DNA from: Eledone cirrhosa
Taxonomy: Eukaryota
NCBI GenBank assembly: GCA_964016885.1
Contig: OZ024743.1
Span: forward strand, 360,468,001-360,532,000
Length of the DNA stretch: 64,000 nucleotides
Reading direction: 5' to 3'
The notes below the pieces were generated by a model. The model had not been told where the DNA came from. It made no database searches and was given only the letters and a program-made list of their open reading frames with translations. Positions 15,414 through 63,907 of the stretch are shown piece by piece. Position 1 is the first letter of the stretch. The number at the start of each line of letters is the position of its first letter. Made by a program: the position numbers and the translations under genes.

Positions 15414-15449
<36 letters not shown>

Positions 15450-15451
<2 letters not shown>

Positions 15452-15806
15452 AGTTGCATTTATCTTGCTTTATGTTCATACGAGTTATCACCAAGTCACA
15501 ACCAGTGACCTCAAGAGACAACAAGGTCCGCCATGTTCAAGAAAGAACATACATACTCACACATGCATCTTTAGTGTTTAGACTTGTGATGTACTTATAT
15601 TGACAGAATCTTCCTTAGTATATGGGCAGTTCCCATTAGTACTATCTTTTGTATTTCTCCTATACGCGGGTTTCCTGGGATTTGCGATAAGTAATCATTA
15701 GACCCCTTAGGTATCATTCCCAGAGTGCCCACAACCACTGGTATTGTTTTAGTTCTCAATTTCCACATTTTTCCAATTTCTATCTCCAGGTCCTTATACT
15801 TGCTCA

Positions 15807-15810
<4 letters not shown>
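15450..15810 (-). mobile_element. R4/Dong element 3' fragment, copy 2
   Basis: Near-identical to the 3' ends of copies 1 and 3; bounded by (ATT)n. Confidence 0.93.
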
Positions 15811-15849
<39 letters not shown>

Positions 15850-15851
<2 letters not shown>

Positions 15852-18800
15852 AGTTGCATTTATCTTGCTTTATGTTCATACGAGTTATCACCAAGTCACA
15901 ACCAGTGACCTCAAGAGACAACAAGGTCCGCCATGTTCAATGAAGAATATACATACTCACACATGCATCTTTAGTGTTTAGACTTGTGATGTACTTATAT
16001 TGACAGAATCTTCCTTAGTATATGGGCAGTTCCCATTAGTACTATCTTTTGTATTTCTCCTATACACGTGTTTCCTGGGATTTGCGATAAGTAATCATTA
16101 GACCCCTTAGGTATCATTCCCAGAGCGCCTACAACCACTGGTATTGTTTTAGTTCTCAATTTCCACATTTTTCCAATTTCTATCTCCAGGTCCTTATACT
16201 TGCTCAATTTTTCAAACGTTTTTATAGATACATTCTTGTCTATTGGAACAGACATATCAATTAGCAGGCATCCCCTCTTGTTAAAGTCCTTCAATATTAT
16301 ATCAGGTCTATTTGCATCTATTTTTCGGTCTGTTTGGATGCTAAAGTTCCACAAGATTGAGATGTGATCTTTTTCAAGTATGGGAGGTGGTTGATGCTCC
16401 CACCAATTCTTTTGATGGGGCAGGTCAAAATGCTTACACATTATCCAATGTATGTATTGTGCAGCTCTGTCATGCCTGTTTAGGTATTCGGTTGGAGCTA
16501 TAGGATTGTACATTGAAATTATATGGTCAATGGTCTCTGGTTGTTTTTTGCATACACGGCATAATGGGCTGCATCCATTTTTATTACGTTGGCTTGGTAA
16601 TTTTTTGTTGGCAGACACTGATCTTGTGCTGATATAATCAGTCCTTCAGTCTCCGATTTCAGTCCAGAGGATGCCAACCACTGATGGGTTAAAGTTTTGT
16701 CAATATCAGGATTGTTAGCTCGCTCTGGGTATTTTCCATACAGAGGCTTTTCTTGCCATTTCTTAGCCAGTTTCTGTAGCAGTTCTTTCTTTGCAGTTAC
16801 TTTTACCTGCTTTGCTTTTTCTGTGTTTTCCATTTCAGCAGTAAATGGGACTTCTGAAATTTGTAGTCCATTACTGTATCTTTGTGCATCTTTTGTAATG
16901 GAATATGATCTTTTGATGCTTTCGTGTTTCAAAACGAATTTGATCATCCAATCATGTGATTCCCTTAGATATGTAGATAATCCAATTGTTGCAGTTTTCA
17001 ACGCAATGTCTAACTGGATTAACCCACGTCCTCCTTCTTTCCTAGGGAGCTATATTCTATCTATATCTGCCTTAGGGAGATGCATTCTGTACCTGGTTAA
17101 GAATTTTCGAATTTTTGTATCGAGCCTACGGATCACTGTGCTTGACCAGTTGATGACATTGTAACTGTAGGTTACTACTGGTATGGCAAGCGTGTTTATG
17201 GCATCGATCCTATTCCTTGCATTCAATTCCGTTCTTAAGATTGCTCCTACTCTGCGGTAACATTCCTTCCTTATCCTTTCCCTCATTGTCGAGTGCTTGA
17301 TTCCGTCTGCTTCACAAACACCTAGATATTTGTAAGTTTTTTCTTGATCAAGTTCTCTTATCACGTTCCCCCGATCAAGATTAATGTCTGAACTCTTCAG
17401 CAGCTTTCCTCTGGTGAACGTTGCTTTGGCGCATTTATCTAGTCCAAACTCCATTTTAATGTCTTCATCATTTTTTGCAAATAGTTTCAGGTCATCCATG
17501 TAGAACAGGTGATTAATGGTTTTGTCATAGACTTTATATCCATGTTTTGTTTCATTGAGCATTTTACTTAATGGTATAAGTGCGATGCAGAATAAAAGCG
17601 GTGATAAAGGGTCACCCTGAAAAATTCCACAATTAATATTAACTTCTCCAGCTTCCAGTGATTTTGTTTCACTATTCAAAAGGAGTGTCGTTTTCCATGT
17701 CTTCATACTGAATGACAAAAACCTCCTGACAACAAAATCTCTAAACATATCTCAATGCAACTGTGTGGCAAACTATCGAATGCTTTTTTATAATCTATCC
17801 AAGCAATCGATAGATTTTTGTGTCTATTATGACAATCTTCCAGTATCATTTTGTTAACCAGAAGCTGATCCTTACAGCCATATGAGCCTTATTTACACCC
17901 TTTCTGCTCAATGGGAAATAGGTCATTTGTTATCAGGTGGTCATATGTGTATTCAGTTAGGACTGATGTTAAAATTTTATACATTGTGGTCAAGCAAGTT
18001 ATCGGTCTGTAATTTTTGGGATTGTTTGTCTCATCATTCTTCGGAAGCAGGAATGTAATGCCGTTAACTAGCCATGATGGTATCTTTTCTGGCTCCTTAA
18101 CTATTTCATTGTAAAGTTGGGCTAACAGTTCATGAGACTCTGTGAAGGCATTTATCCAAAAGTTTTGTATTTTGTCTTTTTCTGGGGATTTCCATTTGCT
18201 GGTTTTTCTTAGAGCCAAGGGCAACTGTTCAACTGTTATATTTTCCCATATTTGTTCCTCAAGGTGAGCTGTATCTTTCATTTGTCTGTCTGCCCATGGG
18301 GCATGTATGTTATGAACTTTTTCTTCGGCCCAGATCTTTTCCCAGAATTCTTGCACTTCCTCCTTGGGTGGTATTGATTTAGCAGTTATTGTTGACTTAC
18401 CAATTTTTCTGTAGAAGTTTCTTTGGTTGTTTTTGAACATATTATTGACCTTATAGAATCTAGATCGTGTTTCAAAGCGCCTTATACGAGCAGCTTTGGC
18501 CGACACTTTTTGCTTGATTATTTCTATCAGCATGTCTATGTCACATGTTGATTTTATACTGTACTTTTTTTTCAATTTTCTAAGTTTAATTTGTTTAACA
18601 TGTTCACCTACTTTATAGTTTGTTAAAATTTCTATGTCAGATCGGAGAAGGTTTATTTGGCGATTGATGTTCTCTTGCCAAGTAGATTTCTTGTGGGAAT
18701 TCCTTTGTTTTTTCATCTTCACTCCACATAAGTGAGTGGTGACTTTAGCCGATGCATAATAGAGATGATTTAAATCAGTAATGTTTAGTTTGTTTGTGAT

Positions 18801-50966: not shown

Positions 50967-53270
50967 ATAAGATATATGAGAGGGATGAACACCGATAAAA
51001 GTGCACATGTATTCCAATTGCAAATAACCAAGTTAGTTAGGAACACATGTATACTTAATTCTGTGTTCATCCAATTATATGACACGGCTGGGAAAGATTA
51101 TTTGGGCTATTTAATTGTAAACAAAACTATTTTGAGTTTCTAACTCATTCTATGTTATTCTCGGCAACTTATGTAAAGCAACTTTAGTCACATAAACTCA
51201 GCTGCTATTTTTACCTGCATGAGTATGAGACGCGTTAGGCGCTTCAACATGTGCGTCTATATCAGCGCATCGTTCAGTCCTCTTAGAACCTTTGAAATGA
51301 AAGTTACGAATTTTCCTGCATACCCGCAGAAGAGCACAGGAATTCTGGCTTTCACTTAATAATTCTTGCAAACAGATTTATGTCTGCCCGGATATCATAG
51401 GCTATTGCCCGATATAGGTTTGTTATTTTTACTGATTTATTACTTTAAATCGAGTGAGGCAACCATATTGTTTTAAATCAGTATTTTTAAACCTCGCTAA
51501 CTTGGTCATTTGCAATTGGAACGTATGTATACTTATATCTTTGTTCATCCCTCTCATATATCCAATTATATTACACGGCTCGGAAAGATTCCCTTCTTTG
51601 AGCTATTTAATTATAAAAGAAACTATTTTGAGTTTCTAACTCAATCTATGATATTCTCGGCTCCTTATGTAAGGCTAACGTTAGTCTCATAAAGACAACT
51701 GCTATTTGTAGCTGCATGAGTATGAGACGCGTTAGGCGCTGCGACATGTGCGTTTATATCAGCATAGAACCTTTGAAGATTAAAGTACGAATTTACCTGG
51801 CTGCCCCCAGAAGAGCACAGGAATTCTGGCTTTCACTAAATAATTCTTGCGAACAGATTTATGTCTGTACGGGTATCAAAGGCTATTGCCCGGTATAGGT
51901 TTGATATTTTTATTGATTTATTACGTTAAATCGAGTCAGGCAAACCATAATGTTTTAACTTAGTATTTTCAACCTAGCTAACGTCATTTGCAATTGGAAC
52001 ACATGTATACTTATATCTGTGTTCATCCTTCTCATATAACCAATTTTATTACACGACTCGAAAAGCTTCCAATGTTTGAGCTATTTAATTGTAAAAAACT
52101 ATTTTGAGTTTCTAACTCAATCTATGATATTCTCGGCTCCTTATGTAAGGCTAACTTTAGTCTCGCAAAACAAGCTGCTATTTTTAGCGGCATGAGTATG
52201 AGACGCGTTAGGCGCTGCGACATGTGCGTTTATATCAGCGCATCGTTAAGTCTACTTAGAACCTTTGAAGTGAAAGGTGCGAATTTCCCTGGATACCCGC
52301 AGAAGAGCACAGGAATCTTGGCTTTCACTTAATAACTCTTGCGATACAGATTTATGTCTGTCCGGGTATCATAGGCTATTTCCCGATATAGGTTTGTTAT
52401 TTTTACTGATTTATTAAGTTAAATCGAGTCAGGCAAACCTTATTGTTTTAAATCAGTATTTTTAAACCTCGCTAACTTGGTCATTTGCAATTGGAACGTA
52501 TGTATACTTATATCTTTGTTCATCCCTCTCATATATCCAATTATATTACACGGCTCGGAAAGATTCCCTTCTTTTGTAAAAAAAACTATTTTGAGTTTCT
52601 AACTCAATCTATGATATTTTCGGCTCCTTATGTAAGGCTAACTTTAGTTTCATAAACCCAGCTGCTATTTTTAGCGGCATGAGTATGACAAGCGTTAGGC
52701 GCTGCGGCATGTGCGTTTATATCAGCGGATCGTTCAGTCTACTTAGACTCTTTGAAGTGAAAGGTCCGAATTTTCCTGGATACCTGTAGAAGAGCACAGT
52801 AATCCTGGTCCGAATTTTCCTGGATACCTGTTATTTTTACTGATTTATTAAGTTAAATCGAGTCAGGCAAACCTTATTGTTTTAAATCAGTATTTTTAAA
52901 CCTCGCTAACTTGGTCATTTGCAATTGGAACGTATGTACACTTATATCTTTGTTCATCCCTCTCATATATCCAATTATATTACACGGCTCGAAACAGATT
53001 TATGTCTGTCTGGGTATCATAGGCTATTGCCCGATATAGGTTTGTTATTTTTATTGATTTATTACTTTAAATCGAGTCAGGCAAACCATATTGTTTTAAA
53101 TTAATATTTTCCAACAGAGCTGACTTGGTCATTTGCGTTTGGAACACATGTATACTTATATCGGTGTTCATCACTCTCATATATCCAATTGTATTACACG
53201 GCTCGGAAAGATTCCCTTCTTTAAGCTATTTAATTGTAAAAATACTATTTTGAGTTTCTATCTCAATCCA

Positions 53271-54604: not shown

Positions 54605-54800
54605 TATAATTGTTTCTACTTTTGGCACAAAGCCAGCAAATATCCCAGTACATTACTGGTAATTTATTTTATAGAGCCCATAAGGATGAAAGGAAAAGTG
54701 AACCTCGACGGGATTTGAACTCAAGCAATAAAGGGGCGTAACTCTATGCTGCAAAGCATGGCGTCCGATCTTCTACCGATACTGCCAATCCCTCGCCCTT
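54605..54800 (-). mobile_element. Meta-type SINE copy
   Basis: Reverse complement of 10628-10817. Confidence 0.85.
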
Positions 54801-54899
54801 ATAATTAAGAATATTTAAACTCTACCACGGTACTGTGTACTCATTCTCACGTCTGTCTGTAACACGGCCCAATATGTTGTAATCTATAGCATAAAATAA

Positions 54900-57800
54900 A
54901 TTTAGACTCTCCTCCCCCAATTTGACGTGTTTATATAGGATGTTCCTCCATCTTGGCCGAGCAGCTGCGAGGCCCTCCCAAGATTCTGTGTTGATACTCA
55001 TGACCTTCATATCTCTCTTCACAATGTCCTTGTATCACAGCCGATGTCAACCGTTGGCTCTCTTTCCAGAGGCCAACTAATATGTCTTTGGGGATGCGGT
55101 CATCATTCATGCGGTGGACGTGTCCTAGCCAGCCGTAGTCTGCGCTGTCGAAGCAGGGTAAACATGCTGGGAGGGTCTGCACAAATAAGGACCTCCGTGT
55201 TGAGCACTCTCTCATTCCGGGATATACCCACGATACGGCGCAGACTTCTAAGATGGAAGGTGTTGAGTCGCCTCTTCTGTATGGCGACCATGTCTCACTG
55301 CCAAACGGCAGCGTGCCGATGACACAAGTATTGTACACAGCCATTGAGGAAGGTAAACTGATGGACGGCGTTGATCTCATTGTCATCGAATTTGATGACT
55401 AGTGTTGCCTCTGTGGCCTGTTCCAAGACGTTTGTCTTCCCAAGGCTGATGGTCAGTCCAAAATCCCTTCAAGCCTGGGAGAACCGGTGCATCAGCGTCT
55501 GGAGTTCCTGATGGAAGTGCGTCGCAACTGCTGTATCATCGGTGCAAAATGATATCTCTAATTAGGGTTTTACGTACCTTTATCCTCGCTCAGAGGCGGG
55601 TGAGGTTGAACAGCTTGCCGTCTGATCTGGTAGGCAGGAAGATCCTCTCTGTTGCAGTGCCGAATGCATGCTTCAAATGTAGAACAAAGAAGATCCCAAA
55701 GATCGTGGGAGCAAGGACGCAGCCTTGTTTTACTCCGTTGCGATTGCTGAATGGCTCAGAGGGGCCCTCGTCAAACTGCACTGTCCCCTTCATGTTGGTA
55801 TGGAAAGATTCGACCATGCTCTGAAGTCCCGGTAGGCAGTCAAACTTTGCGAGGATCTTGACGAGGCCGTCTCTACTAACCAGGTCAAACTCCTTGGTGA
55901 GGTCGATAAAAGCAGCATACAGGGGCATGTTCTGTTCCCTGCATTTCTCCTGGAGTTGGTGGAGGGAGTCGACCACGTCTACTGTTGATCGCTTGGCTCG
56001 GAAGCCGCACTGTGATTCTGGGTACACATGGTCTCCCAGCTTCTACAGGCGGATCAAGATGACCAGTGCGAATACCTTTCCAACGAGACTGAGAAGGGAG
56101 ATGCCCGTGTAGTTGATACAGTCGCTTCTTTCGCCTTTGTTCTTTCAACCCTCATATCCTGTAGCACCGCACCTTTTTTCCAGCACTGGCAGAGGATCCC
56201 ATGCAGTGGCTGTAGTAGGTTAGTCCTGCATTCCTTGATCAGGTCTGGAGGAACCCTATCGACACATGTGGCCTTGCCTGAGGCCAAGCAGTTAATGGCT
56301 TTGTTGATCTCTTCCAAGGCTGGCTCAGCATCAAGCTTTTCCATGACAGGCAGGCACTCAAGAGTATCGAGAGCCGAGTGGGACACGATGTTCTGTCTGT
56401 AGTAGAGTTCCGAGTAGTGCTCCACCCATCTTTCCATCTGCTTTCACCTATCAGTGATTAATTCCCAAGTGTTGGATTTCAGGGAGTAGTTGTCTTGCTC
56501 TGGACCGGTCCCAGTGCCTTCTTGATGCCATCGAACATGCCCCTGATGCTATGTTCGGTACTCATTAGCACAGTGCCTTGCAGTCTGTTGAACCTTGCTT
56601 CTGGCAGCCCTGACAGTCTGCAGGTTCTTTTCCCTGGGTGGACGATTGTACTCAGCTAGGGCAGCTGGTTCGCTTCAATGACAGCTGTCATCCTGATGTT
56701 CATGGCCTGTGACCAGTCATATGACCTCAAGACCCTCTTTCCAAACGTAGCCAAGGCGTGCTGCGCATGATGTTTTTCAGCATTCCCCACTTCTCTGTAG
56801 CAGAGGGAAGGGAGAAGTTCTTTTTTGAGAGCCTCCATGAATTGCCTTACAAGTCCTGATTGGTACATATTGCTGACATCAACGCAAGGATTACCCTGTT
56901 TTGTCAGTGGATGGAATCTCCTCGGGTGCAGCCTGATCTTGCAACACACCAAGCAGTGGTAGATGCGTATGTGGGGAGCCTACTTGATGGCAGTACATCT
57001 GACCAGAATGAGATCCAGCAGGTGCCAGTGCTTTGAGCGTAGATGTCTTCAGGAAACCTTGTGTTGTGGCTTGGTGTGGTAGTAGGAGTTGGTGATGCAC
57101 ATATTGTGATAAATGCACAAATCGAGAAGGCACTGTCCATTGTCATTCATTTTTTCCACACCAAACAGTCCAAGGCAGGAGCGCCATCAGTCATGATCAG
57201 CACCCACTCTGGCATTGAAATCCCCAAGGAGAATGAGGTGATCTCTGTTGGGGGTGTTGCTGATAGTGGATGCAAGGTTCTCATAGAACCTATCCTTTGT
57301 GTCTGATGTGGAGGACAGACTTATGGCACCACCTGACGAGGGTGACGATCTGCGGTGGTGTTGAGGTGGAGACTCAGAAGTTTCGCTGAGCCGTTATACT
57401 CTGGTTTTACCATACTCGGCAGGCTGTTCTTCAATGCGAAGACTATTCCATGCTCTCTGGGTTCGTCTGAGCCACTCCCCTGCCAGTAGAACGTGTTGTC
57501 TGTTTCCTTCAGTGTACCTGAGTCAGTAATCGCGTTTCCTGAAGGGTGGCAAGGCCCACGTTCAGTCGCTTACGCTCCGTCTAAATCACAGCTGTTTTTT
57601 CTGCAGTCACTGATGTTAAGTTATTTGTTGGAAAGGTCAGTAATCATTGTCCGGACATTCCAAGTTGCCAATTTTAGAGCTTGTCTCTTTCGTTGCTTGG
57701 TTGTTTTACCTGGTGCAAAGTTTGCAGTCTGCTGTTCGGATGAATCCTAATCCTCATGCACCCAATCAGGATTGTCAGGTCAATCATGGTTGCTACTGGT

Positions 57801-58636: not shown

Positions 58637-58722
58637 CATGTATGTGTGTGCGCGCATGTGTATGTATGTGACGCGACTGTATATGTACATATGTATATAT
58701 ACACACATATATATATATATAT

Positions 58723-59041
58723 AATAATTGTTTCTACTTTTGGCACAAGGCCAGCAATTAACCAGTGTATTAGTGGTACTTTATTTTATCGACCCCATAA
58801 GGATGAAAGGCAAAGATAACCTCGGCGGGATTTGAACTCAGAATTATTATATACATATATATAATAATTGTTTCTACTTTTGGCACAAGGCCAGCAATTT
58901 CCCAGTACATTAGTGGTACTTTATTTTAACGACCCGTACGGATGAAAAGCAAAGTTAACCTCGACGGGATTTGAACTCAAACCGTAAAGGGACGTAACTA
59001 TGCTAGAAAGCATGGCGTCAACCCGCTACCGATACTGCCAA
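58723..59041 (-). mobile_element. Two tandem Meta-type SINE copies (58723-58842 truncated; 58863-59041 near full length)
   Basis: Reverse complements of 10628-10817. Confidence 0.88.
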
Positions 59042-59508
59042 TATAATAATGAGAGGTACGCACATCTGGAAGCGATCTTTCTCCGAGGAATTCCCTTGAA
59101 AAGCTGGCTTGCCTCACAACAATGTTGCATCTCTATGATGTAGGATTGTTGCATACTGACCAGCGAAACTCTACAGTCGGGACATTGAAGAAAAAATAGG
59201 TATACATCTGTGTTTATTACTTCTTCTTACTTTATAATTTGTTATATATATATACACACAGGAAAACAAAATGGCGTAGGACAGAACAAAGGAGAGGCAC
59301 AAAAACAAAGAAAAGAATCCCCAGTCACTGAAGAGGTCACAGAATGTGTGACGAAAGAACTTTGACAATATATAAACAACTATCTGGTTGTGGAACCAAC
59401 CAACCGGAAATTTATAAATTCCTAAATTTATAAATCTATTATAATAAATTGAAGTGAAAGCAGCTGGTGCGTGTGTTTCTTACTGGCAACATGACCCTCC
59501 CAAAATAT

Positions 59509-59613
<105 letters not shown>

Positions 59614-59984
59614 GGAGCATGTGTGAATTCCTGGGTACAGTTAGGCATATTTGAAAAGAGGAAATGAATGATTCAATTCTAGTTGGTGTTCTAAATAATT
59701 TAATTTTATAACATTACTATTTTATAACATTACTATTTTATAACATTACTATTTTACAATTTTACTATTTTACAATATAGAAAAATTGTATAATCGTAAT
59801 ATTATAAAATTGTATCTGAAAAATAACTGAACATGAATGTAGTGAGTCCTCATTCCACGACATTTGACTCGATTTAGATCCATCATTAACAGAAACAAAT
59901 AACATCTTTAGATAAGTAATAGTGACGTTTGAAGCTGCAAGCTGCAAGTCGATTCATATTGCACCATTGTATTTGGGTCATGTA

Positions 59985-60119
59985 CCTCTCTCCCGACCGG
60001 ATTGACATCTTTGAGCAGTGCACTTGCGAAAATTAAAAAAAAAAATTTAAAAAAGGAGTAGAGAAACAAGCGACCTCCCGGCCGCTTGCTCCTCTCCTTG
60101 AATTTGTTTTGCAATGCTC
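59985..60119. repeat. Left viral terminus: ITR-related motifs plus an imperfect hairpin
   Basis: CCTCTCTCCCGACCGG..GCAGTGCAC (59985-60023) mirrors the right hairpin arm; AAGGAG..CAAGCG/CGCTTG..CTCCTT stem at 60053-60099. Confidence 0.7.
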
Positions 60120-60133
60120 TTTTTTTAAATAAT

Positions 60134-60139
60134 TTTATT
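60134..60139 (-). terminator. Putative distal poly(A) signal of the viral transcription unit
   Basis: Minus-strand AATAAA ~67 nt after the NS1 stop (60206), just before the terminus. Confidence 0.5.
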
Positions 60140-60205
60140 GAAATAAAGAATACAATTTATGAAAATATTTCCTTTCGGAATTACCAATTATATAATCAAA
60201 GATAT

Positions 60206-61864
60206 TTAATATTCTGGAGAGTTTGGTATTGGTACCGCTGATGGAGAATTTCTATGTGAATCCATTAACTTGGCATATTTGGTCCATCTGCATTCGGTTG
60301 GTCTGTTTTCTTTGTCTGAGTCTTCTTCTTGGTCTGTTGATCCACATACGAGAGTGTCCCCGCTTCTACAAGGAGACGGAGTCAGAACTCTACTTCGTCT
60401 TTCTCATTCTCTTTTTTCTTCGTACTCATCTACAACAAGAGCGAGATTGTCATCAGAGGATGAACTATCTTCATTTGCTAAATTGAAGAAGCAATGTTCG
60501 TAAAAAAGTTCGTTCCAAATAAATGGATTTAGTTTTCTTTTGACGTATTGTAAGAAAGGTTATGCTGTGTTGAATATAAATTCTGTGTATCTTGTTACGA
60601 ATGCTAATTTTTCTGCTAAAGGAGCATTTTGGTCAAATTTATTGTTATACAAGTGGAGTACGTTTAACAAGTTGATCTTGTTTAAATTTGACAGCTACTT
60701 CTGTGTCAACACCTTCTGCTAATTTTTTGAAGGTTTGCAGTGTTTCCAATGTGAAGTTTGGTTCCTCTATTAAACCTATTTCAACATTTATTAAATTTTG
60801 GAAAGGGAAACTTGTTGTGCCTTGTATAGTTGATACATGTGTAAACATGTCTGTTATGCTTCTTGCAATCATGCTTTTGCCAGTATTTGGCAAACCACGG
60901 AAAGCTAGCAAGTTTTCTTTTTTTTTTTTTTTGCTAGCAAGTCCCATACACATCTGACAAATACGCATTCTAAAATGTCTTGCGTCATCAAGATTGATCT
61001 GAATACTTTTAATGACATGTCTCTGTTTAAGTAATTGTTATTTTCATCGAAATATTCCCAGTTCATGGATTCAAATTTTTCTTGAAATGTTTTATTTAGA
61101 GTTTTTATTTGTTCGCAATCGAGAACTTTTCGCATGATCGTGTCATACATTGGATGAGAGATTGCTTTCATAAAATTATCATTATTATTTCTGTTAAGCC
61201 AATAGGATTTCATATCTTGCTCGGTTCTAAATCGTTTGCTGGTGAATATGTAGGATAAGTAGTTAAATAACGTTAATGTTCTACCTGATCTTGTTTTAAA
61301 ATAAGGTTCTTCGTCATTTGGTTTCCTGCCTGTGTCGTTTGTTGCTGCTGAATTCGTTGGTTTTTCAATGTAGTCCATCTTGCACCATTCACCAAATTGT
61401 TTGCTTATTTTTTCTCTTCCTTGAATTATTAATTTTCGTGGTTCCTGGCAGAAGTAATTTGCCATGCTGGACGGGAATTTAACTCTCTGACATTCAGGTA
61501 TGTATCTTACCAGTTTCGTTGCCTTTTTGTATAAGCTTCTTATATATTTAAGTTTTTGTATCTCTCCAGGTCTTGTTGAGCTAGTCCAAATTATATGAAA
61601 ATGGTTGAACGCATTCCATTCTTTTTTCTGACATAGCGTAGTTTCTTTTGGATGGTAGATTACAGTTGCGGCATTACTTTGTATGAACTCTTTCATTTTC
61701 AAATTTGCGTTGCATTGGTATGTATTGTTCGGTGTTTCGTTTTGTCGGTCGTATTCGATTGCTTCCAATAACTATGGATTTATTGGTGACGTATCGTCGT
61801 TCCATCTGAAGTCGTCCTTTTCTATCCATGAATAGATGCACATATATAATTTATTTCCAGTATT
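60206..61864 (-). pseudogene. NS1: Parvoviral NS1/Rep main exon (HUH endonuclease + SF3 helicase), with stops and frameshifts
   Basis: HFHIIW (motif II), NYFCQ (motif III Tyr), GLPNTGKS (Walker A), IGLIEEP (B), FKKLAEG..VAVKFK (B'), TPLV..NN (C), AF..R, KLNPFIW; TAG at 61772-61774, frameshift at poly-T 60918-60932. Confidence 0.93.
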
Positions 61865-63450
61865 CTGCAAATGAAAGAGGTTAATTTGTATTATTACTCT
61901 AACGATAAGCTTGTCGGGTACTGCCGACTCTCGTTATTTCATAATTACGTAAACCTTGCGGCCATTTACAAAGATTTGTTTTAGCAGAGTTAGGAATTAC
62001 GGCATTGTCTTTACCCCAAGCCATCCAACCCATCATTTGTGGACTACCCGATATATATTCAAAGTCTATTTCTGATTCGTATGTTATTGTTATCATGAAA
62101 GATATTTTCGCAGGATTGTTTTGTGAATCTAGTATAGGAATAGAATCTAGCGCTGCTATTGGAGGTGGATTTGAAGGATTAATAGGAAATTGTGTTAAAT
62201 GCGAACGTCCTGTGTTTTCTTCTTCTGCTGTTTTATCAACTGCTAATTCTTTAGACCATGTTCCGTCTTTTGTTTGTGCCCATTGACTTTTTAGAGCTCC
62301 TGAATAAGTGTTAATTTCGCACGGTAAACCATTAGTTTGTAGTAACCCCTTAAGTTAAACCAACTAGGTGTTCTATTTACCCATGTGTACTGAGCTGTTT
62401 CTCCTGCATATATGAATGTACAATTCCCAGTATTCATGTATGATACGATTTCTTCTGCTGGTATTTCTTGTTCTGTTGGTGTAGCTGCTTTTGTATCTTG
62501 TCATAACCACCAGTCTTTACGAATTAATCTGTTTGTTGTAACGTTTACCAATTTGCCTTCATCTCTTGTCTGCGGTATATTATTTGTCCAGTTGTTGTTA
62601 AGATGTTTTATGTCATACGTAGCATTAGGAAATAATGCATATTTTGTGTCTACGTAATGCGTCGTCCAAGGTCTAGTGTTGACTGTAGTGTTAGTAGTTG
62701 TAGTGTTTTGTAAAGTTCCTAATTCGTCTGTTAACGGTACTATGTTTGATATTTTGTACCCTATCGATTTAACCCGAAAGTTGCTTGCTGGTGTTAAATA
62801 TGTTTCTAATTCTGCCATTGTCATACTAGCTTTTAAATCTGTGTATGGTATTAATGCAGCTCTATGTACTATTTTTAATTGAATATATTCGTTGTCGTGT
62901 TTTCTGTAGAAAGCTTTGTCAATAGGATGAACGAAACAGTTAATGTAATGTACGAATGTTCTTGAACATTCTTTTGGTTACTATCGGATATATAACTCCT
63001 GTTGAAGGTGGCTGATCTCCTGTAGCCATGGAAGCTGCACCTCCTGGTGCTGGCCCAACATGATGATCCCCCATGTTTTGAGATTCGTTTATTCCGCTAT
63101 CTTCTGATGTAACTGCGTCAATCAAATCTTGATCTGAAATGTCGCAAGTATCTTCTTTATTTTTTGTCGATTGTTCTTGTTCGATTCTTCTTTTTTTAGG
63201 AAAGACAGGAGGCATTAGTATGTTTTTTGCCGTAATTATATTCCTCACTAAGAACGACGATACCCCACTGATTTCTTTACTACACTCTATTAATTTGTTA
63301 TCTGCGTCTTGTGTTGATATATCTTGTGTATAATAATCTAAATCGTATTGTCTGCAGCAGTTATCTAATTCGTTAATAGGTTTCTTTAGAAAGTTATTAG
63401 TGTAAGGCCCACAGTAATTATAAAATGGTAAATGTAGTGGCATTACTTAC
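61865..63450 (-). other. Predicted phase-0 GT-AG intron of NS1 that contains the whole VP gene
   Basis: Donor GCG|GTAAGT at 63450; TTAAC-CTCTTTCATTTG-CAG| acceptor at 61865; the join is in frame. Confidence 0.75.
61899..63443 (-). pseudogene. VP1: Parvoviral capsid VP1 with N-terminal PLA2 domain, frameshifted
   Basis: YNYCGP..INELD.CC.QYD..Y....AD (PLA2-like), PKKRR NLS-like, Gly/Ala-rich GPAPGGAAS, LIPY.DL...MT.AEL...RVKSIGYKI (jelly-roll start); ORF pieces 63443-62940, 62824-62501, 62096-61899. Confidence 0.9.
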
Positions 63451-63621
63451 CGCTAATTCGTTCAACATTTCGCTATCTCTTGTTTTTAAGTCTTCGTAAT
63501 TCATTGTTGGTTTTCTGTTCCAGTGGAGTATCGTCGTTCTTTTTTGCTCGGATTCTTCTGCCTTTGTGATAGATTTTTCCGCGCAATTGTTAAGTTTTTT
63601 TGTTTTTTTGCAACGGGTCAT
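63451..63621 (-). CDS. Predicted NS1 exon 1 (57 codons); as an unspliced uORF it reads on to the stop at 63418
   Basis: ATG at 63621, ~120 nt inside the terminal hairpin; exactly 57 codons before the GTAAGT donor. Confidence 0.65.
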
Positions 63622-63737
63622 TTATTCTGCCTATGTCAGCCGATTTTAATATCCAATCAGAATTAATCTTAGTCAGCAAAATCTTTCCCGCCGCTTAGTA
63701 ATGAATACCTCCTCGTAATTTGATAACCTGTCTGCGC

Positions 63738-63907
63738 TGTGCACTGCCCTTTTGGTAAGGGAGACAAGCCGGTCGGGAGGGAGGGGGAGGTAACATTACA
63801 CAGTTATAGCGTAAAGGCTCTTCACGTTTGCCTATCCGCTAAATACTTAGAATTCCTCCACCTCCCTCCCGACCGGCTTGTCTCCCTTACCAAAAGGGCA
63901 GTGCACA
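63738..63907. repeat. Parvoviral terminal hairpin: 53-bp stem (52/53 paired), 64-nt loop
   Basis: 63738-63790 versus 63855-63907 are reverse complements with one mismatch; GC-rich against an AT-rich background. Confidence 0.93.

What the first reader, a model, noticed from the sequence alone, without database searches (positions are those of the whole stretch)
59985..63907. Near-complete endogenous densovirus retaining both genome ends in a probable cephalopod
Most parvoviral EVEs are NS1 fragments. This one keeps NS1, VP, a 53-bp terminal stem and the opposite end in ~3.9 kb, with only scattered stops and frameshifts, so the ancestral genome can be reconstructed. Terminal signals outside both genes argue that the odd gene order is native. 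No target-site duplication was visible.
Basis: partly seen in the sequence, partly recalled or inferred. Interest (0 to 1): 0.75.

Follow-up and report, generated by a model that had tools for sequence, protein, structure and literature searches.

The report
Parvovirus fossil: capsid gene inside intron
A nearly whole but broken parvovirus, one of dozens of related insertions in this probable octopus genome, carries its capsid gene ahead of its replication gene and likely inside an intron of that gene, the reverse of the textbook parvovirus layout.

Summary
The minus strand carries a ~3.96-kb endogenous parvovirus: a 170-nt hairpin (63738-63907), a PLA2-bearing capsid gene (VP), then NS1, then half of a different end hairpin (to ~59947). 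It has 4 stops and 4 frameshifts and no target-site duplication.

The VP-then-NS1 order is native. It holds at 16 of 17 places in this genome that show both genes, perfect head-to-head and tail-to-tail junctions put both hairpins outside the genes, and a database NS1 relative carries the VP C-terminus just upstream.

New here: a conserved 18-codon exon ends at a GTRAGT donor 7-10 nt before the VP start, and a conserved acceptor lies after the VP stop, in frame with NS1. VP therefore likely sits inside an NS1 intron. No RNA was available to confirm this.

Copies differ under purifying selection (VP dN/dS 0.11-0.20) and show both hairpin-loop orientations, which points to many independent integrations. 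One 99.7-99.9% subgroup at four loci indicates very recent entry. The lineage fits no named genus tested, and 'densovirus' applies only loosely. I found no description of this layout in ten literature searches; the PmMDV paper could not be read.

The parts
63738..63907 (.). VP-side terminal hairpin: 53-bp stem, 64-nt branched loop; right host junction at about 63907/63908
   Evidence: conserved in paralogs with the loop in either orientation, 7 rows one way, 5 the other, 1 not callable, of 13
63505..63737 (-). Inferred single promoter and leader region between hairpin and exon 1
   Evidence: position only; CCAAT-like and A/T-rich boxes seen by eye; not tested
63451..63504 (-). Predicted NS1 exon 1, 18 codons from a conserved Met; it is the conserved part of the short ORF 63621-63421
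   Evidence: Met found exactly 54 nt before the donor position in 9 of 11 lineage representatives
61865..63450 (-). Predicted 1,586-nt intron, GTAAGT donor to polypyrimidine-CAG acceptor, phase 0 at both ends, holding the whole VP gene
   Evidence: donor in 7 of 10 representatives covering it, acceptor in 10 of 11, intron 1,575-1,660 nt in the 7 copies where both ends were placed; no RNA evidence
61899..63443 (-). VP (capsid) pseudogene with N-terminal PLA2 domain; frameshifts near 62965 and 62345, stop at 62503; PLA2 active site degenerate in this copy
   Evidence: the fold of a natural paralog matches parvoviral capsids
60206..61864 (-). NS1 main exon (pseudogene): HFH motif, SF3 helicase; stops at 61774, 60562, 60406, frameshifts near 60930 (poly-A run) and 60645
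   Evidence: paralog model matches AAV2 Rep40 at Z 20.2, rmsd 4.8, 246 residues
60134..60139 (-). Candidate polyadenylation signal after NS1
   Evidence: AATAAA listed, one of 10 on this strand; assignment inferred from position
60054..60099 (.). Small sub-terminal hairpin
   Evidence: similar sequence in L022 and L013
59947..60030 (.). One arm and the tip of the NS1-side terminal hairpin; shares a CCTCCCTCCCG-type block with the other end; left host junction near the tip
   Evidence: complete hairpin seen in L003

Best explanation
This is a decayed, nearly full-length insertion of a parvovirus whose own genome runs hairpin, short exon, capsid gene, NS1 main exon, hairpin on one strand, with the capsid gene likely nested in an intron of NS1. 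Shown: the order, the two different ends, the breaks, the conserved donor and acceptor in phase, and the many related copies. Inferred: one promoter near the VP-side hairpin makes one transcript; splicing joins the 18-codon exon to the NS1 body and removes VP, while the unspliced form would give VP by leaky scanning past the exon-1 start, so splicing would act as the early/late switch. Inferred: the copy entered the germline as a hairpin-ended replicative form joined to host DNA by end-joining, breaking at or near the hairpins without a target-site duplication, probably a few million years ago. The other copies are separate integrations of diverged viruses of the same lineage, the latest very recent.
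For: Order VP then NS1 on one strand at 16 of 17 places with both genes among loci L001-L030 (overlapping loci grouped by hand), plus L040. Only 55 nt separate the VP stop from the NS1 Met, with no hairpin. 100% palindromes centred on the VP-side end (L005, L017) and on the NS1-side end (L003). GTRAGT at 63450 is the only such site shared by 3 or more of 11 representatives; 7 of the 10 GTRAGT sites in them are this one; the acceptor lies 21 nt before the NS1 Met in 9 of 11 (not placed in 2), although synonymous sites between copies are near saturation (VP dS 1.07-1.99). An exon-donor-ATG pattern has 17 matches in 3.0 Gb, control 0, one at a locus not used to write it. The N-terminal 176 aa of database NS1 P0005, read in the +1 frame, match the VP C-terminus (4 of 5 targets clearly above 12 shuffles, best 112 against 30). 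Both loop orientations among copies. VP dN/dS 0.11-0.20 in 10 pairs. Left junction bridged by public contigs.
Against: No RNA data, so splicing is a prediction. NS1 has its own Met just after the acceptor and could be translated without exon 1. None of the 192 fetched database proteins carries the exon-1 motif. 2 of 14 copies have a changed first donor base (hand count). A second parvovirus lineage in the same genome is also VP-first but shows no conserved acceptor by eye, and one of its copies has a TATA-like run between the genes, so VP-first does not require nesting. L027 shows NS1 before a VP fragment, and L080 has a lineage-1 NS1 piece before a lineage-2 VP. The same frame test was negative for P0014 and P0007. 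The right junction is bridged by 30 letters only. No free virus with this layout was found in IMG/VR or JGI scans.
Confidence: 0.8

Rival explanations
1. VP-first order is native, but NS1 is made from its own promoter inside the 3' part of VP; the donor and acceptor serve a minor product or leader.
For: NS1 has a Met 21 nt after the acceptor; lineage 2 is VP-first without an evident conserved acceptor; no fused protein among fetched records.
Against: Donor and acceptor are both phase 0, at fixed distances, and the 18-codon peptide is conserved across copies with near-saturated synonymous sites.
Confidence: 0.11
2. The element spreads inside the genome like a rolling-circle transposon, using NS1, rather than by repeated infection.
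For: About 37 helicase-positive places; a 99.7-99.9% subgroup at 4 loci with unrelated flanks; no target-site duplication, as for Helitrons (recalled).
Against: Most copies are 66-85% identical with purifying selection on the capsid too; breakpoints vary and many copies are rearranged concatemers; both loop orientations occur, as in viral hairpin transfer.
Confidence: 0.04
3. An ordinary NS1-then-VP parvovirus integrated as a circular or head-to-tail form and was cut so that VP comes first.
For: Concatemers are present in the family; L027 has NS1 before a VP fragment.
Against: A permuted form would leave terminal sequence between VP and NS1; there are 55 nt and no hairpin, the hairpins lie outside in all copies examined, and the order is the same in independent lineages.
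Confidence: 0.03
4. Assembly chimera of host DNA with a contaminating virus.
For: Right junction only borderline bridged; supporting runs may be the assembly's own sample.
Against: The copy is full of stops and frameshifts, its depth is like that of adjoining flank contigs, the left junction is bridged, and it lies in a 379-Mb contig.
Confidence: 0.02

Closest known systems
Family Parvoviridae, standard layouts (review PMC11357303, section 1.1.1 read)
   Same: Hairpin ends, NS1 with SF3 helicase, jelly-roll VP with PLA2, heterotelomeric ends, size about 4 kb.
   Different: The review states that all parvoviruses have NS on the left and VP on the right, same-sense or ambisense. Here VP is upstream of the NS1 body on the same strand, likely within its intron.
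Penaeus monodon metallodensovirus (Metalloincertoparvovirus; PDB 6WH3)
   Same: Best sequence match of the VP among solved structures (E 5e-8 over 57 residues); marine invertebrate host; small VP.
   Different: PmMDV lacks PLA2 and has 416-nt ITRs with a T-shaped hairpin (PMC11357303, passages and section 6.1). Its gene map could not be checked because the primary paper is not held.
Chaphamaparvoviruses such as MKPV, and SsChPV (Hamaparvovirinae; PMC6631224 passages; PDB 9NEK)
   Same: One promoter with large introns that choose between NS and VP products; 9NEK is the best Foldseek PDB match of the VP model (E 1.3e-10, 18% identity).
   Different: Mirror image: there the order is NS-NP-VP and large introns bring upstream exons to VP; here the intron removes VP to reach NS1. 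The hamaparvoviruses described in PMC9896142 lack PLA2.
Unclassified 'parvoviridae sp.' from bird cloacal viromes (UniProt A0A8A4XCI9, A0A8A4XE40, A0A8E7G2L8, A0A8A4XDN7)
   Same: Top Foldseek matches for both NS1 and VP.
   Different: Only 17-20% identity; the source-type paper (PMC9896142, passages and one section) describes such genomes as monosense or ambisense and mentions no VP-first layout; figures not seen.
Earlier cephalopod and flatworm parvoviral EVEs (PMC5013282 passages and supplement hits; PMC6880638 passages)
   Same: NS fragments from Octopus bimaculoides and Sepia officinalis are listed; tapeworms hold 26 densovirus loci with ITR remnants.
   Different: The cephalopod rows seen are NS fragments with no genome layout; tapeworm elements are NS1 then VP with two promoters.

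Membership tests
Parvoviridae | Linear genome of about 4-6 kb with hairpin termini | tested here: met
   About 3.96 kb between a full hairpin and a half hairpin; both ends confirmed by palindromic junctions in paralogs
Parvoviridae | NS1 with SF3 helicase | tested here: met
   Pfam Parvo_NS1 above cut-off; AAV2 Rep40 and B19V NS1 are the top structural matches
Parvoviridae | HUH endonuclease domain in NS1 | tested here: inconclusive
   An HFH motif and a downstream conserved Tyr are seen in the alignment; the structure search was filled by the helicase domain
Parvoviridae | Single jelly-roll capsid protein | tested here: met
   Model of a natural paralog (mean pLDDT 61) matches parvoviral capsids in all listed PDB rows, best E 1.3e-10
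Parvoviridae | ssDNA packaged in T=1 virions | not testable with these tools
   No free virus found
Densovirinae | NS1 groups with classified members | tested here: inconclusive
   Best fold matches are unclassified at 17-19% identity; my tree held no classified references
Densovirinae | Ambisense, or monosense NS-then-VP layout | tested here: not met
   Monosense VP-then-NS1
Densovirinae | PLA2 domain at the VP1 N-terminus | tested here: met
   Phospholip_A2_4
Metalloincertoparvovirus (PmMDV) | No PLA2 domain | tested here: not met
   PLA2 present
Metalloincertoparvovirus (PmMDV) | Long ITRs with a T-shaped hairpin at both ends | tested here: not met
   The two ends differ apart from a short shared block
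Metalloincertoparvovirus (PmMDV) | NS1 identity of 35-40% or more to the type member | not tested
   PmMDV NS1 was not available as a named sequence
Hamaparvovirinae | NS1 monophyly with members; usually no PLA2 | tested here: inconclusive
   VP fold nearest to 9NEK and 3N7X among single-virus capsids, but PLA2 is present and no reference tree was built
Rolling-circle transposon (Helitron-like) | Fixed ends and a target signature across copies | tested here: not met
   Breakpoints vary within and around the hairpins; definition recalled

The most novel reading that the evidence does not exclude
An undescribed lineage of parvoviruses of octopuses and other animals nests its whole capsid gene inside an intron of its replicase gene, uses splicing of one transcript as the switch between replication and packaging, and is still circulating and still entering this host's chromosomes today.
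Probability: 0.55. Interest if true: 0.88.

Novelty: new variant of a known kind. Interest (0 to 1): 0.75.

Why it matters
Parvoviruses are described as NS-left, VP-right. A native VP-first genome with the capsid gene inside the NS1 intron would be a further basic layout for the family and a clear viral case of a nested gene. It makes a testable prediction: one splice junction in RNA data. The genome also holds a layered record of repeated infection by at least two deep VP-first lineages, including very recent insertions. This points to a living virus in a host group for which the aquatic-parvovirus review read here names no parvovirus (0 hits for octopus or cephalopod).

Tried and rejected
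No RNA holder listed for the stretch, so expression and splicing could not be examined. IMG/VR scans with five queries found no relative except a papillomavirus-like helicase contig, L042; the one JGI scan gave 17 weak helicase matches only. A search for shorter proteins matching the NS1 N-terminus found none. The PmMDV primary paper was not held by DOI or PMC id. Ten paper searches: searches gave 0 papers; 32, 53, 99, 108 nothing relevant in the listings; others gave the reviews cited. None of the passages read describes a VP-first or VP-in-intron parvovirus; subscription journals, ICTV proposals and figures were not visible. Target-site duplication: only an imperfect 12-nt likeness 16-17 nt away from each junction, judged chance. 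An 84-bp inverted repeat around lineage-2 copy L077 looked like ITRs but borders retrotransposon-like sequence by eye and was rejected. HUH-domain structures did not appear in the VIA list, which excludes nothing. One search used wrong frames and was replaced. RAD-seq runs of other samples gave only sparse reads (depth under 2) and no junction evidence. Earlier findings: none by words or sequence.
Full report
Observation. The minus strand of 59947-63907 holds, in order: a 170-nt hairpin (63738-63907; 53-bp stem, 98% complementary; z -18), a short ORF, a capsid gene starting with a PLA2 domain (Pfam E 1.4e-12), and NS1 (Parvo_NS1 E 1.2e-12). Against natural paralogs, VP has 2 frameshifts and 1 stop, NS1 has 2 frameshifts and 3 stops. 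The PLA2 active site is degenerate in this copy. The left end aligns with the ends of paralogs L022 and L003 well above 300 shuffles each and corresponds to one arm and the tip of a simple hairpin that is complete in L003. The two ends differ except for a short shared block. No target-site duplication was found.

Is it integrated? A 653-nt public contig spans the left junction with no differences in both contig runs laid. A 6-kb contig enters the right flank with 30 letters on the viral side, one short of the tool's bar. Depth over the element is similar to that of these flank contigs. The runs may be the assembly's own sample, so they argue against a chimera but are not independent individuals. 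Two RAD-seq runs from other samples gave only sparse reads.

A family. The window lies in a 3.0-Gb genome. A DNA search gave 93 matches and a helicase search 47, about 37 places by my hand grouping, a lower bound. I examined the 30 best loci and further stretches. Of 17 places with both genes, 16 run VP then NS1 on one strand; L027 shows NS1 before a VP fragment. Most pairs are 66-85% identical. Among five copies, VP dS is 1.07-1.99 and dN 0.13-0.26 (ratio 0.11-0.20, 10 pairs), and NS1 synonymous sites are saturated. The divergence thus built up under selection, in replicating viruses, not by decay of one insertion. The VP-side loop occurs in both orientations (7 rows, 5 rows, 1 not callable, of 13), the flip/flop pattern of parvoviral hairpin transfer (established knowledge, recalled). 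One subgroup is 99.7-99.9% identical at four loci whose flanks share nothing (7 flanks compared), and includes perfect head-to-head and tail-to-tail palindromes, the forms expected of rolling-hairpin intermediates. Its contig depth is lower than seven germline copies would predict, which I cannot resolve.

The order is native. The palindromic junctions place both termini outside the genes, and only 55 nt separate the VP stop (61899) from the NS1 Met (61843). A second lineage in the genome, with NS1 about 25% identical, is VP-first at 4 of 4 places. Outside this genome, the long N-terminal part of database NS1 P0005 (34% identical, 89-kb contig) matches the VP C-terminus in the +1 frame for 4 of 5 targets (best 112 against a shuffle maximum of 30); the same test was negative for the short extensions of P0014 and P0007.

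VP inside an intron. Upstream of the VP start, copies keep an 18-codon reading frame that ends at GTAAGT or GTGAGT, 7 or 10 nt before the VP ATG: 12 of 14 distinct copies by hand count, the other two with a changed first base. In an alignment of 11 lineage representatives this is the only GTRAGT site shared by three or more (7 of 10 covering it; 7 of all 10 GTRAGT sites). A pyrimidine-rich CAG after the VP stop is shared by 10 of 11, against at most 4 for any other such site, and lies 21 nt before the NS1 Met in 9 of 11 (not placed in 2). Both ends are phase 0, and the intron measures 1,575-1,660 nt in the 7 copies where both were placed. A pattern of exon, donor and ATG has 17 matches in the genome and its control none; it was written from the copies, but one match is a locus not used. 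If the donor bases were kept only for their amino acids, synonymous changes would be expected at this divergence. In the window the predicted exon 1 is 63504-63451 and the intron 63450-61865. Splicing itself is not shown: no RNA run was listed and none of 192 fetched proteins has the exon-1 motif. Lineage 2 shows no evident conserved acceptor, so nesting is argued for lineage 1 only.

How it likely works. Shown: layout, ends, signals. Inferred: a single promoter near the VP-side hairpin and a poly(A) signal near 60139; the spliced RNA encodes NS1, the unspliced RNA encodes VP by leaky scanning; retention of the intron would favour capsid late in infection. Inferred: integration by end-joining of replicative forms, with breaks in the hairpins. 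Age: about 5.4% of single-base changes make a stop in these genes, so 4 stops in about 3,200 nt imply roughly 2% decay (0.6-6% by Poisson limits, hand calculation); the hairpin arms differ at 1 of 53 pairs. With a neutral rate of a few per billion sites per year (recalled) this is a few million years. The window copy most likely makes no working protein; a role as small-RNA template is possible but untested.

Relatives and placement. NS1 has 16 database homologues (78% for one, 32-46% for the rest, all unnamed). The only named full-length VP homologue is 'capsid [Octopus vulgaris]', 37% identical; a deeper search found 54 proteins at E 1e-10 or better. By sequence the nearest solved capsid is PmMDV; by fold it is the pipefish chapparvovirus, with the PstDV and PmMDV capsids next among single-virus entries. 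The nearest named predicted structures are unclassified parvoviruses at 17-20% identity. It is a parvovirus, but it fails the layout test for Densovirinae and the PLA2 and ITR tests for Metalloincertoparvovirus; no tree with classified references was built.

Literature. PMC11357303 (passages, sections 1.1.1 and 6.1) says all parvoviruses have NS left and VP right. PMC6631224 (passages) describes the mirror arrangement in MKPV, with large introns leading to VP. PMC5013282 (passages and first supplement hits) lists NS fragments from Octopus bimaculoides and Sepia officinalis. PMC6880638, PMC9896142, PMC11125579, PMC10267136 and PMC12115719 were seen as passages (one section of PMC9896142) and mention no VP-first layout. 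The PmMDV primary paper, ICTV proposals, figures, bioRxiv supplements and subscription papers were not visible and could hold a prior description; I recall, unverified, that the PmMDV paper placed an octopus element in its tree.

Verdict. A real endogenous parvovirus, member of a multi-copy family, with a native VP-first layout (about 0.93) and VP likely nested in an NS1 intron (about 0.85 given that). New variant of a known kind; interest 0.75.

Noticed in passing
L040:4461-7907; L081/L041; L077:2349-5460; L082:2050-5240: A second parvovirus lineage, NS1 about 25% identical to the first, is also VP-then-NS1 on one strand at 4 of 4 places showing both of its genes. The Sepia officinalis fragment in the supplement of PMC5013282 resembles it by eye.
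   Followed up: partly
L003; L005/L009/L017; L006/L012; L008: Young subgroup, 99.7-99.9% identical, at four loci with unrelated flanks, as rearranged concatemers with largely uninterrupted frames. The assembly holds its exon 1 seven times, but contig depth is only about 1.5-2 times that of the window copy, so some copies may be mosaic or duplicated in assembly; the tool warns that depth is no copy number.
   Followed up: partly
The window copy is solitary within its 64 kb.
   Followed up: no
window 61434-63793: Contigs of one sample differ from the window at 11 single bases and one gap within the element, which suggests a second allele that also carries the insertion; depths are low (5-12).
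   Followed up: partly
window ~54800-57600 (-): Decayed LINE with a reverse-transcriptase match (Pfam RVT_1, E 9.5e-14 at 55593-56042).
   Followed up: partly
window 58708-58979 and 59170-59490: Two copies of a short interspersed repeat, and a very high-copy repeat (contig depth near one million).
   Followed up: no
window 51069-52808 and 15415-16210: Tandem arrays with 487-bp and 400-bp units.
   Followed up: no
P0018: A 418-aa database protein with a parvovirus-type PLA2 N-terminus followed by an arginine-rich arm, resembling a CRESS-virus capsid by eye.
   Followed up: no
P0017 cluster (CAI9722210-15): Octopus vulgaris annotation has five near-identical records of this VP family with neighbouring accession numbers on a 177-Mb contig, perhaps another concatemer.
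   Followed up: no
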